DNA of 64,000 bases from NCBI RefSeq assembly GCF_029227855.1, contig NZ_CP074356.1. The stretch is one strand, 5' to 3'. Below, piece after piece: positions 48,488 through 49,403 of this stretch. The DNA is from Escherichia coli (lineage in GTDB: Bacteria > Pseudomonadota > Gammaproteobacteria > Enterobacterales > Enterobacteriaceae). The notes under the pieces are model-generated. The model was not told where the DNA came from. It saw nothing but the letters and a program-made list of their open reading frames with translations, and searched no databases. Each line of letters starts with the position of its first letter. The stretch's first letter is position 1. The position numbers and the translations under genes were made by a program.

Positions 48488-48816
48488 GAATCCCTCTGCA
48501 ACAAAAACAAACAGTCTCCGGCGTGTGCTTTTTGGCTGCGCCAGAACGATACCTTTACGCCGGAGTGGTAGTTTGTTGAGGTTTAGGGAGTTTCAGGCTG
48601 TACGCAGTACAGACTGCCTGCGAAGCAGGAGTGTCTCCGGGGCTTCTTGCCCCCCTCGGTATCGATCTTTTTCTCCTTTACTCTTAGCTGACAGCGGCCC
48701 CAAAGGGCATGTCAGACGGCGGAAATATGGCGCAGGCCAGAACTGGCGCGGCTTGTGGCGGTGAGTTGTGCGGCGTCACTTTGCTTTTTCGCTGGCGCGA
48801 CCAAAGTGACGCCTCG

Positions 48817-49176
48817 TCTGGTGCAGGGGGTAAACGTTACGTTTCTGGTGCAGGGTGACGGTCACGCGGCAGCAAAGCCTGACGGCAATGCAGGCCGCAG
48901 CCCGTCAATGTAAGGCGCTGGTTGTCAGCAGAAGATAAAACCCGGCAAAGCCAGAGTGTCAGCCCGTAAAGCCGGGTATCTGGTGCAGTGATGGTGTATA
49001 TGTACGTCAGTCTCAGATGCAGGTATTTTTGCATCCCCGGCGTTTTCAGAGATCAACGCCGGTAAAGGATGCCATGCTGGCGAAGCCAGGCGCTTCTTTC
49101 AGACGTGAAGCGACAAAGGGACTGCCCGGAGGCAGTTTGTTGCAGGCGGGAGACTGCGCCATTATTTCTGGTGCAG
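48817..49176. repeat. Four direct copies of TCTGGTGCAG within a GC-rich non-coding block
   Basis: Copies at 48817-48826, 48844-48853, 48979-48988 and 49167-49176; the block also holds several GC-rich inverted repeats including a 15-bp-stem hairpin at 49254-49295. Confidence 0.45.
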
Positions 49177-49403
49177 GAAGGAAAAACTGTTTCCGGGTTT
49201 AAAAGATTGTTTGCTTACCTGGTGACGGAAAAACTGCCGCGCTTCGCTTGTCTTCTCCCGGCGCGCTGCCAGCAAAAGCAGGCAGCGCGCCGGGAGAGTC
49301 TGGTTTTACTGTAACAATGCGCCTGACGGTTCAGCCATCAGGATCGGCGTTTATGCATGAGTCTTCCGGTACGGTTGCCCCGATCATCGATGTATCTGGA
49401 CGG

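What the first reader, a model, noticed from the sequence alone, without database searches (positions are those of the whole stretch)
48490..49400. GC-rich non-coding block with four TCTGGTGCAG direct repeats and strong hairpins
About 900 bp between the 205-aa ORF and the Ner-like gene has no convincing ORF but contains four exact copies of TCTGGTGCAG, a 15-bp-stem GC hairpin (49254-49295) followed by ggtttt, and further inverted repeats (48775-48815, 48832-48844). It could be an oriT/att-like site, an array of regulator binding sites, or a structured RNA.
Basis: seen in the sequence. Interest (0 to 1): 0.5.

Follow-up and report, generated by a model that had tools for sequence, protein, structure and literature searches.

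The report
Structured leader before an island recombinase
The GC-rich "non-coding block" is a conserved, heavily folded untranslated stretch read on the opposite (minus) strand, containing the catalogued but functionally unknown EFASI RNA motif and a decayed copy of its usual partner STAXI, placed in front of a recombinase gene of an E. coli tRNA-Asn genomic island.

Summary
There are four exact TCTGGTGCAG copies, a 20-bp hairpin, further hairpins, and no conserved ORF. The block is not an orphan, and its working strand is the minus strand.

Rfam places EFASI (RF02957, 100.8 bits) at 48543-48670(-), 55 nt upstream of a frameshifted Phage_int_SAM_2/Integrase_1 recombinase gene.

The remaining ~730 nt aligns colinearly across Escherichia, Serratia, Klebsiella, Cedecea, Erwinia and Salmonella. 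It holds a degenerate STAXI-like double pseudoknot (49007-49160) and conserved hairpins with compensatory changes. G.U versus A.C exceptions (58:15) favour minus-strand folding.

Diverged homologues of the recombinase on plasmids show canonical STAXI, then ~420 nt, then EFASI, then the gene. This is the association Rfam already describes.

Three things appear to be new:
- The linker between the two motifs is itself structured.
- EFASI is extended by a covarying pseudoknot helix (48557-65 with 48516-24).
- The repeat is a clade-specific, single-stranded box CUGCRCCAGA. It is always sense-oriented, with reverse-complement copies after EFASI and downstream of the gene, and it often lies at rearrangement end-points.

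The most likely role is a cis-acting structured leader RNA for the recombinase gene. What the box does is unresolved. Overall: a new variant of a known kind, of moderate interest.

The parts
49254..49297 (-). Hairpin H1: a 20-bp GC-rich stem directly after the Ner-like gene. Its base is conserved (CUCUCCCG...CGGGAGA) and its middle varies with compensating changes.
   Evidence: Arms found. Present in about 20 distinct leaders, with 7 Watson-Crick-variable pairs. Alifold energy is -43.3 on the sense strand against -28.5 on the antisense strand. Alignments.
49233..49253 (-). Conserved unpaired stretch AAGACAAGCGAAGCGCGGCAG 3' of H1.
   Evidence: Nearly invariant across genera.
49167..49176 (-). 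Box a, CUGCACCAGA (reads TCTGGTGCAG on the + strand). Found in the Escherichia clade only; some strains have CUGCGCCAGA or CUGCUCCAGA.
49007..49160 (-). Degenerate STAXI-like element: a UCCG-loop hairpin, then two pseudoknot units (CUGAAAGAAG...UUCG hairpin; ACCGGCG/CGCCGG crossing UCUC/GAGA).
   Evidence: Aligns colinearly with L015, whose homologous stretch scores 35.8 bits against Rfam STAXI. The window copy itself stays below E=10 with Rfam and scores 4.8 bits with my own STAXI model.
48979..48988 (-). Box b, CUGCACCAGA, in the wider context AUCACUGCACCAGA. Other genera have CACUGCGCCAG at the aligned place.
   Evidence: Two independent truncations end directly after this box.
48929..48978 (-). 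Hairpin ACCCGGC...GCCGGGU followed by UUUUAUCUU, terminator-like on the minus strand (Escherichia type).
   Evidence: Terminator-like call on the - strand at 48955-48941. Sequence.
48854..48922 (-). Most conserved 'core' stem-loop: UGACGG/CCGUCA enclosing GCGGC/GCCGC.
   Evidence: Helices 1 and 2 (96-97% of cells paired, 5 pairs with changes on both sides). Also present alone on pESI-type Salmonella plasmids.
48844..48853 (-). Box c, CUGCACCAGA: the universally conserved copy, unpaired, directly 3' of the core stem-loop.
   Evidence: Exact in almost all of the 41 distinct leaders, about 300 nt upstream of the EFASI 3' anchor.
48827..48843 (-). 17-nt spacer with a small hairpin (AACGUAACGUU). 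Other clades carry different hairpins of the same size here (GUGCCCUCUCAGAGCAC; CGCGAUCUUUCGCG).
   Evidence: Alignment. The spacer is also exactly 17 nt in O145, L033 and pESI.
48817..48826 (-). Box d, CUGCACCAGA (Escherichia clade). Other clades have a degenerate copy at the same 27-29 nt distance.
48772..48813 (-). Hairpin GGCGUCACUUUG...CAAAGUGACGCC. The stem sequence is conserved even in the diverged plasmid clade, and the apical part covaries.
   Evidence: Helix 3 has 5 pairs with changes on both sides. Divergent clade.
48688..48715 (-). Hairpin CUGACAUGCCC UUUG GGGCCGCUGUCAG in the link to EFASI.
   Evidence: Helices 4 and 5 (96-97% of cells paired; 13 U.G variants, and 12 double changes at one pair).
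48543..48670 (-). EFASI RNA motif (Rfam RF02957).
   Evidence: 100.8 bits against a gathering score of 51.2, E 2e-20, full-length match.
48536..48545 (-). Reverse-complement box UCUGGCGCAG directly after the EFASI closing stem, lying in the loop of the P-ext helix.
   Evidence: Invariant in all window-type loci, including the nine found by protein search.
48516..48565 (-). P-ext helix: CUCCGGCGU (48557-48565, unpaired in the Rfam EFASI model) pairs with ACGCCGGAG (48516-48524). It forms a pseudoknot with the EFASI closing stem and is followed by a U-rich tract.
   Evidence: Kept in all 20 diverse loci with at least 4 different Watson-Crick versions and only U.G exceptions. 14 double changes.
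47870..48487 (-). Frameshifted gene for a Phage_int_SAM_2 + Integrase_1 tyrosine-recombinase-like protein. Intact relatives are 294 aa.
49404..49592 (-). Ner/SfsB-like HTH gene directly upstream on the same strand.

Best explanation
The block is the untranslated, highly structured middle part of a minus-strand transcription unit of a tRNA-Asn genomic island. The order is: isrK/c4-type RNA, ORF153, Ner-like gene, about 0.9 kb of leader, then the Integrase_1-family recombinase gene.

The leader is a member of the known STAXI...EFASI arrangement. It contains hairpin H1, a decayed STAXI double pseudoknot, a conserved structured linker, and EFASI.

Inferred role: it acts in cis as a folded 5' leader, possibly also processed into stable RNAs, that sets how much of the upstream transcription and translation reaches the recombinase gene. 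The likely switch point is the EFASI pseudoknot. The P-ext helix plus its U-rich tract lies 30-60 nt before the start codon and can form or be prevented from forming.

The repeated TCTGGTGCAG is the complement of an unpaired RNA box, CUGCRCCAGA, that sits between the hairpins. I take it to be a sequence-specific recognition element (for a protein or for base pairing) added in this clade.

Shown here: identity, strand, conservation and base-pairing. Inferred: transcription as one unit, the regulatory role, and the role of the box.
For: - EFASI hit at 100.8 bits, 55 nt upstream of and co-oriented with the recombinase gene.
- The same order (isrK/C4, genes, about 750 nt, EFASI, gene) is seen in nine species from seven or more genera.
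- In diverged plasmid homologues (recombinase 46-59% identical) the order is STAXI (65-102 bits), about 420 nt, EFASI (84-91 bits), then 80-136 nt to the gene.
- On 39 distinct sequences, 95.1% of cells are paired against 34-39% in slid controls. There are 12 pairs with changes on both sides against 5.9 in shuffles (0 of 500 reach it). Most of this covariation lies in the linker helices.
- The P-ext helix is conserved with compensatory changes in all clades.
- Exceptions in Watson-Crick-supported pairs are G.U 58 against A.C 15 on the minus strand, and consensus energies are better on the minus strand for H1, the STAXI-like element, the core and the link.
- No conserved ORF and no sigma-70-like promoter inside the leader.
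- Upstream genes are always co-directional.
- Read-through from an isrK promoter into downstream genes is established for the Salmonella isrK operon (PMC4825925).
- EFASI and STAXI RNAs were detected by RT-qPCR in E. coli vesicle preparations (PMC12370729).
Against: - There are no transcript data for this locus.
- Rfam's curators describe EFASI as likely acting in trans as a small RNA (quoted).
- The window's STAXI-like part fails the covariance-model threshold.
- Both strands fold equally well thermodynamically.
- The G.U:A.C bias is not corrected for shared ancestry, and the EFASI control itself shows little bias (30:22).
- In this window both recombinase genes are frameshifted, so the element may be a relic here.
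- The inverse-oriented box copies and the rearrangement end-points at boxes fit a DNA-level role at least as well as an RNA-level one.
Confidence: 0.6

Rival explanations
1. The 10-bp boxes work on double-stranded DNA. They would be binding sites for the adjacent Integrase_1-type recombinase (or the Ner-like protein), arranged as opposed arrays on either side of the EFASI-plus-recombinase unit. In that role they would act as accessory or recombination sites (resolution, excision, cargo exchange) or as operators. The hairpins could still be RNA.
For: - Boxes are sense-oriented upstream and reverse-oriented from the EFASI 3' end onwards, including 5-8 copies in the AT-rich non-coding stretch 46907-47813.
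- A 25-nt inverted repeat joins 47135-47159 and 48977-49001.
- The period is a constant 27 bp with 17-bp variable spacers, and copy number varies between lineages.
- Five or six of about 14 independent homology break-points fall at boxes, including two different left flanks joined at the same nucleotide.
- Boxes and the tail box disappear together in the diverged recombinase clade.
- The intact protein keeps recombinase-type motifs (LRSQE, HSLRY, LGHG...Y) (identified by eye only).
Against: - No box has an inverted partner 6-8 bp away, as core sites of tyrosine recombinases do.
- 27 bp is out of helical phase.
- The protein has no arm-binding domain.
- No inversion junction for the best inverted-repeat pair was found in 342 E. 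coli genomes.
- Downstream architecture is the same in about 16 distinct Escherichia-type loci.
- The reverse-oriented copies inside the gene coincide with common CTG-GCG-CAG codons.
- One 'box' junction has plausible microhomology with the Rhs flank.
- Deletions between direct repeats need no recombinase.
Confidence: 0.22
2. The folds act in single-stranded DNA, for example as a priming, promoter or recombination structure exposed during transfer or replication of the mobile element. This is what the discoverers of STAXI considered.
For: - STAXI lies near ssb, topoisomerase, antirestriction and integrase genes (PMC2864571).
- The diverged homologues sit on conjugative MPF_G/MPF_F plasmids next to antirestriction genes.
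- G.T pairs are also tolerated in DNA, so the strand bias fits a specific DNA strand as well.
Against: - No transfer or replication genes are seen in this island within the window region examined.
- UUCG/UCCG tetraloops stabilise RNA rather than DNA, which is the original authors' own argument, and such loops are present here.
- The folded strand is always the coding strand of the flanking genes, and the motif is always 55-136 nt upstream of the gene start, as expected for a 5' UTR.
Confidence: 0.08
3. The block is a decaying remnant without present function: a pseudogene or degraded cargo whose repeats and hairpins are chance or hitch-hiking.
For: - Both recombinase genes of this island copy are frameshifted.
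- The STAXI-like part is degenerate.
- Many truncated versions exist.
Against: - Conservation across genera includes invariant boxes and compensatory changes.
- No conserved reading frame.
- The same architecture is kept next to intact genes.
Confidence: 0.08

Closest known systems
EFASI RNA motif (Rfam RF02957; Enterobacteriaceae, Frequently Around STAXI and Integrases)
   Same: A full-length match at 48543-48670(-), upstream of an integrase-type gene and a few hundred nt downstream of a STAXI-type element, exactly as the family description says.
   Different: The Rfam model stops before a covarying helix (P-ext). That helix pairs its 'single-stranded' CCGGCG stretch with sequence 29-48 nt downstream. 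Rfam suggests a trans-acting sRNA. The constant 55-136 nt distance to the gene start suggests a 5' leader instead.
STAXI RNA motif (Rfam RF01728; Weinberg et al. 2010, PMC2864571)
   Same: Same position relative to EFASI and the recombinase gene. Tandem hairpin/pseudoknot units with UNCG loops and the CUGAAAGAAGCGCC core. A c4-type RNA lies nearby.
   Different: The window copy does not reach any covariance-model threshold and has only two recognisable units. Its clade carries the CUGCRCCAGA boxes, which canonical STAXI loci lack.
P1/P7 c4-icd-ant and Salmonella Gifsy-1 isrK-orf45-anrP operons
   Same: The transcription unit starts with c4-a1b1/isrK-like and C4 RNAs (50104-50289, minus strand), followed by protein genes. 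Read-through of the isrK terminator into downstream genes is documented.
   Different: Those operons end with an antirepressor. Here they continue through a Ner-like gene and a 0.9-kb structured leader into a recombinase gene.
Resolution sites of Tn4430/Tn5401 (TnpI) and similar recombinase-proximal arrays of binding motifs (from my own knowledge, not tested here)
   Same: A tyrosine recombinase gene preceded by several copies of a short motif. In Tn5401 there are further copies elsewhere in the element.
   Different: Those sites span about 100 bp and include an inverted core pair. Here the boxes are spread over 350-450 nt between covarying hairpins, and no inverted core pair exists.
Lambda-type nut sites (boxA plus boxB hairpin; from my own knowledge)
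   Same: A conserved linear box followed by a short hairpin whose sequence differs between lineages while its shape is kept.
   Different: Several copies per leader, no known N-like partner, and no sequence similarity.

Membership tests
EFASI (RF02957) | Covariance-model score at or above the curated gathering score (51.2 bits), full-length match | tested here: met
   100.8 bits, E 2e-20, model positions 1-133 of 133, at 48543-48670(-).
EFASI (RF02957) | Lies upstream of an integrase-type gene, in Enterobacteriaceae | tested here: met
   55 nt upstream of the Phage_int_SAM_2/Integrase_1 gene. The window is E. coli.
EFASI (RF02957) | Functions in trans as a small RNA (Rfam's suggestion) | not testable with these tools
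   No transcript ends are available. The P-ext helix and the constant distance to the start codon point rather to a leader.
STAXI (RF01728) | Covariance-model score at or above the gathering score (40.5 bits) | tested here: not met
   No STAXI match at E<=10 in 48480-49420. My own model built from canonical copies gives 4.8 bits, E 0.44, at 49088-49137(-). The homologous stretch in L015 scores 35.8 bits.
STAXI (RF01728) | Pseudoknot unit repeated two or three times, often with UNCG loops | tested here: inconclusive
   Two units with UCCG/UUCG loops and crossing helices can be read in the colinear alignment, with covarying stems (GUC/GGC vs AACC/GGUU; UCUC/GAGA vs CCUC/GAGG). They were not scored formally.
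STAXI (RF01728) | Near genes for DNA-handling proteins; sometimes near c4 RNAs | tested here: met
   Recombinase gene downstream and C4 RNA upstream.
Intrinsic terminator (for hairpin 49254-49297) | GC-rich stem directly followed by a U run on the transcribed strand | tested here: not met
   On the minus (sense) strand the stem is followed by AAGACAAGCG. On the plus strand only a 6-bp sub-stem (49289-49304) plus TTTAC is called. No plus-strand gene ends here.
att / core recombination site of a tyrosine recombinase | Two inverted recombinase-binding half-sites separated by 6-8 bp | tested here: not met
   All leader boxes are direct repeats. The nearest inverted copy is 270 nt or more away.
Invertible segment bounded by inverted repeats | Both orientations are found in a population of genomes | tested here: not met
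   The junction expected from inversion between 47135-47159 and 48977-49001 is absent: 0 of 342 genomes cover 80% or more of the junction query. Only one repeat pair was tested.
oriT | A nick region next to relaxase or mobilisation genes | not tested
   No relaxase appears among annotated neighbours. No nic-site search was done.
Iteron / operator array | Direct repeats at regular spacing bound by a cognate protein | tested here: inconclusive
   A 27-nt period holds for two or three of the boxes; the others are 135-190 nt apart. Binding is not testable here.
Protein-coding gene / pseudogene | A reading frame conserved among relatives | tested here: not met
   ORF positions and strands differ between lineages, and annotators disagree.

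The most novel reading that the evidence does not exclude
STAXI, the linker and EFASI would be domains of one large (about 0.75-0.9 kb) structured RNA that is a functional partner of the Integrase_1-family recombinase encoded right behind it.

One version: a scaffold or guide that recognises the CTGCRCCAG/CTGGYGCAG DNA boxes flanking the gene by base pairing. This would be analogous in logic to the IS110 bridge RNA, but with a tyrosine recombinase.

The co-occurrence over 46-100% protein identity, the unpaired invariant 10-mers, their reverse-complement DNA copies, and the rearrangement end-points at boxes do not exclude this.
Probability: 0.04. Interest if true: 0.9.

Novelty: new variant of a known kind. 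Interest (0 to 1): 0.38.

Why it matters
STAXI (described in 2010) and EFASI (described in 2017) are orphan RNA motifs with no known function. If they are parts of one conserved leader of a little-studied recombinase family found in genomic islands, ICE-like plasmids and the pESI megaplasmid lineage, their function becomes directly testable with fusions, compensatory mutants of the new helix and box mutants. It could also explain how such islands control a second recombinase. For genome annotation, the small 'hypothetical proteins' called inside this block are probably spurious.

Tried and rejected
- Plus-strand terminator reading of the big hairpin: rejected. No plus-strand gene ends there, and comparative data favour the minus strand.
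- Hidden or frameshifted gene: rejected. No conserved frame.
- Canonical STAXI membership of the window copy: not met with Rfam or with my own model R1. Only the clade-iii relatives L015 and L058 score weakly.
- Pairing of the boxes with the UCUGGCGCAG tail after EFASI: considered but not supported. The universal box has A where G is needed. In L073 the tail changes (AUGG) without a matching change in the boxes. The diverged clade has neither element.
- Box complementarity to the C4/isrK RNAs: none seen by eye.
- Inversion between the 25-nt inverted repeats: no junction in 342 genomes.
- Arm-type sites of the P4-like integrase: rejected. No boxes lie within 1.8 kb of the tRNA-Asn core.
- Phage origin: one short Salmonella 'phage' record and one viral contig only.
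- PDB relatives of the recombinase: none by sequence.
- ORF153: no Pfam, NCBIfam or PHROG family.
- Literature on PF12835/PF12834 and supplementary data of the 2017 motif paper gave nothing usable. One literature search was wasted on the psychological test that is also called STAXI.
- Single-sequence folding does not separate the strands.

Full report
**1. What is in the sequence**

The window is an E. coli chromosome: 99.9% identical to strain ST2747, with matches in 426 of 5,426 complete genomes.

The finding lies in an island at a tRNA-Asn gene (45034-45109). Reading along the + strand, the island contains:
- a frameshifted P4-type integrase (45271-46532);
- an AT-rich repeat-rich stretch;
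- a frameshifted 'integrase domain' gene on the minus strand (47870-48487);
- the non-coding block;
- a Ner/SfsB-like gene (49404-49592, minus strand);
- a 153-aa ORF with no family match (49589-50050, minus strand);
- C4 and isrK/c4-a1b1-type RNAs (50104-50289, minus strand);
- an Rhs gene.

No ORF in the block is conserved.

**2. Identity**

Rfam finds a full-length EFASI RNA (RF02957, 100.8 bits, gathering score 51.2) at 48543-48670 on the minus strand. This is inside the finding and 55 nt upstream of the recombinase-like gene.

EFASI stands for 'Enterobacteriaceae, Frequently Around STAXI and Integrases'. The family text says it usually lies several hundred bases downstream of a STAXI motif and upstream of an integrase gene, and that its function is unknown (quoted in PMC12370729). 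STAXI is a tandem pseudoknot motif found near DNA-handling genes and sometimes near c4 RNAs (PMC2864571).

The intact form of the downstream protein (294 aa in strain AW1.7) has Pfam domains Phage_int_SAM_2 and Integrase_1.

**3. Conservation**

A protein-based scan of one genome per species found the same module in E. whittamii, E. albertii, Serratia, Klebsiella indica, Cedecea, Pseudocitrobacter, Salmonella arizonae, Erwinia and an unnamed enterobacterium. In each, the order is isrK/C4, ORF153, Ner-like gene, about 750 nt, EFASI, gene, tRNA.

The 750 nt aligns colinearly across these genera. A DNA-pattern scan of metagenomes added 54 loci, giving 41 non-redundant leaders.

In that alignment the window's 49007-49160 lines up with a stretch of strain SC434 (L015) that scores 35.8 bits against Rfam STAXI, just under threshold. 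The window copy shows the same UNCG-loop hairpin, the CUGAAAGAAGCGCC core and two crossing-helix units. Even so, it does not reach E=10 with Rfam, and it scores only 4.8 bits with a model I built from canonical copies. I therefore call it a degenerate STAXI-like element, not a member by score.

**4. The wider family**

tblastn against plasmids found homologues of the recombinase at 46-59% identity in Salmonella, Klebsiella, Citrobacter, Pantoea and Erwinia. Every one has 1-1.9 kb of unannotated DNA in front.

Rfam finds canonical STAXI (65-102 bits), then about 420 nt, then EFASI (84-91 bits), then 80-136 nt to the gene. In three loci a second STAXI follows the gene.

The linker of this diverged clade keeps the GCGUCACUU...AAGUGACGC hairpin seen at 48772-48813 in the window. 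The unit 'STAXI, structured linker, EFASI, Integrase_1 gene' is therefore old and general. The window holds a decayed copy of it.

**5. Structure and strand**

I wrote a structure by hand and counted it on 39 distinct sequences.
- 95.1% of cells pair, against 34-39% when partners are slid.
- 12 pairs show changes on both sides, against 5.9 in shuffles (0 of 500 reach it).
- The covariation score is 0.100 against 0.061 (0 of 500).

The double changes lie mainly in the linker: the core stem UGACGG/CCGUCA, the GCGGC/GCCGC helix, and the GGCGUCAC hairpin. EFASI itself is too conserved in this set to covary.

A helix not in the Rfam model, here called P-ext, pairs CUCCGGCGU with ACGCCGGAG 29-48 nt further on. 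The first strand is drawn unpaired in the EFASI model. The helix is kept in all 20 diverse loci in at least four Watson-Crick versions (CUCCGGCGU, CCCCGGCGU, UUCCGGCGC, CCCCGAUG), with only U.G exceptions. It crosses the EFASI closing stem, so the two form a pseudoknot.

For the strand, I took helices predicted on either strand and kept only pairs that are Watson-Crick in at least 60% of sequences. Among those, the exceptions are G.U 58 against A.C 15 for the minus strand. Consensus energies are better on the minus strand for H1 (-43.3 vs -28.5), the STAXI-like element, the core and the link.

This is not corrected for shared ancestry, and thermodynamics of the single sequence is symmetric. 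Still, the folded strand is the coding strand of both flanking genes in every locus. I conclude that the hairpins act in a minus-strand single strand, most simply RNA.

**6. The repeat**

On the minus strand the repeat reads CUGCACCAGA, with CUGCGCCAG as a common variant.

One copy (48844-48853) is almost invariant in all genera, unpaired, directly 3' of the core stem-loop. The other copies sit at lineage-specific places (about -273, -327, -437, -530 and -622 to -667 from the EFASI 3' end), always in the sense orientation.

Where two or three copies are adjacent, the period is 27 nt. That is a 10-nt box plus exactly 17 nt of variable spacer, which often forms a small hairpin. This holds in E. 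coli, O145, L033 and on pESI plasmids.

Reverse-complement copies start at the EFASI 3' edge. UCUGGCGCAG (48536-48545) lies in the P-ext loop and is invariant. Further copies continue through the gene and into the AT-rich stretch (46907, 47148, 47177, 47370, 47813). The copies inside the gene coincide with the frequent codons CTG-GCG-CAG and may be incidental. Those in the AT-rich non-coding stretch are not.

Several independent rearrangements end at boxes:
- two different left flanks joined at the same nucleotide after the -434 box;
- a truncation at the -438 box in Salmonella Infantis;
- box-to-box deletions;
- a 27-nt insertion.

One of these junctions has plausible microhomology.

Boxes and the tail box are both missing from the diverged plasmid clade and present in the intermediate L073.

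Simple pairing of the boxes with the tail is not supported, because of an A.C mismatch in the universal box and the absence of covariation in L073. No inversion product of the best inverted-repeat pair exists in 342 genomes.

**7. Mechanism**

My preferred reading has three parts.
- Transcription from the isrK/C4 promoter runs through ORF153 and the Ner-like gene into a long, tightly folded leader. Read-through from such a promoter has precedent in Salmonella.
- The fold protects an untranslated 0.9 kb and delivers, or withholds, ribosome access and elongation at the recombinase gene. The likely decision point is the EFASI/P-ext pseudoknot and its U-rich tract just before the Shine-Dalgarno sequence.
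- The box is a clade-specific recognition element in the unpaired linkers.

These steps are inferred. What is shown is the identity, conservation, base-pairing, strand and gene association.

The main rival is that the boxes are DNA sites for the recombinase (or the Ner-like protein). A minor rival is a single-stranded-DNA role, which the STAXI authors once considered. I consider a functionless relic unlikely, given the conservation next to intact genes.

**8. Novelty and score**

The block is largely explained by catalogued motifs, so the finding as stated is not a discovery of a new class.

Three things are not in the family descriptions I could read: the structured linker joining STAXI and EFASI, the P-ext helix, and the box array with its polarity and its link to rearrangements.

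That makes it a new variant of a known kind, of moderate interest (0.38). The speculative reading that the RNA is a working partner of the recombinase would be of high interest, but I give it only a few per cent.

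Noticed in passing
window 50104-50289 (-): C4 antisense RNA (62.2 bits) preceded by isrK-like / c4-a1b1 target elements (45.5 and 43.8 bits, just under gathering). This is a P1/P7- or Gifsy-type immunity RNA module at the head of the same minus-strand unit. It is conserved in all related loci.
   Followed up: partly
window 46560-47400: AT-rich non-coding stretch between the two recombinase genes. It has a 228-bp-spaced direct repeat (46734-46864 / 46962-47092, 73% identical), each copy containing a 41-nt inverted repeat. It also holds several CTGCAYCAG boxes in the orientation opposite to those of the leader. One box (47370) sits in the loop of a 6-bp palindrome, ACAGTC...GACTGT.
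   Followed up: partly
window 45271-46532 and 47870-48487: Both recombinase genes of this island copy (the P4-type integrase and the Integrase_1-type gene) are annotated as frameshifted in the 99.9% identical strain ST2747. The island is probably immobile here.
   Followed up: partly
window 48516-48565 (-): The EFASI Rfam model seems incomplete. Its conserved 'unpaired' CCGGCG stretch pairs with a downstream segment in every clade, which makes a pseudoknot with the closing stem.
   Followed up: yes
L016 4750-5260 (Salmonella Infantis pESI-type plasmid pN55391): A copy of the leader (STAXI-like element, core stem-loop, GCGUCAC hairpin, four boxes) sits after a PemK/MazF toxin gene. It has no EFASI and no recombinase gene; an rve-type transposase gene follows instead. 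About 140 Salmonella plasmids carry it.
   Followed up: partly
L017 4254-5440 (Salmonella Infantis, record labelled as plasmid): Here the Integrase_1-type gene with a truncated leader lies about 1 kb from a tRNA-Asn gene with no P4-type integrase. It is followed by methyltransferase, ParA and SIR2 genes. The leader homology starts exactly at a box, next to a phage gene fragment. The 499-kb 'plasmid' looks like chromosomal sequence.
   Followed up: no
L076 3940-4088, L077 3940-4089, L080 4933-5049: A second STAXI copy lies directly downstream of the recombinase gene on Pantoea, Erwinia and Klebsiella plasmids, so the gene is bracketed by STAXI elements there. In L080 the hit overlaps a weak radC-motif hit.
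   Followed up: no
L003 4898-5200 (E. coli O145:H28 RM12581): A HigA-family antitoxin gene is inserted in the leader between hairpin H1 and the first box. The same strain has a third box with a new 17-nt spacer.
   Followed up: partly
window 48755-48913 (+) and equivalents: RefSeq annotates small hypothetical proteins (for example WP_000301065.1) inside the leader, at different places and on different strands in different strains. They overlap the covarying hairpins and are probably spurious.
   Followed up: partly
window 40801-40876, 43210-43285, 45034-45109: Three tRNA-Asn genes lie within 4.3 kb. The island sits at the third. Related islands in other strains use neighbouring asn tRNA copies (next to mtfA or yeeO).
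   Followed up: no
window 48671-48690 (-) and diverged loci: A perfect Shine-Dalgarno-like AAGGAG is conserved 5-8 nt upstream of the EFASI closing stem in both clades, with no start codon at the proper distance. EFASI's unpaired ACCUCAAC could pair with such purine runs.
   Followed up: no
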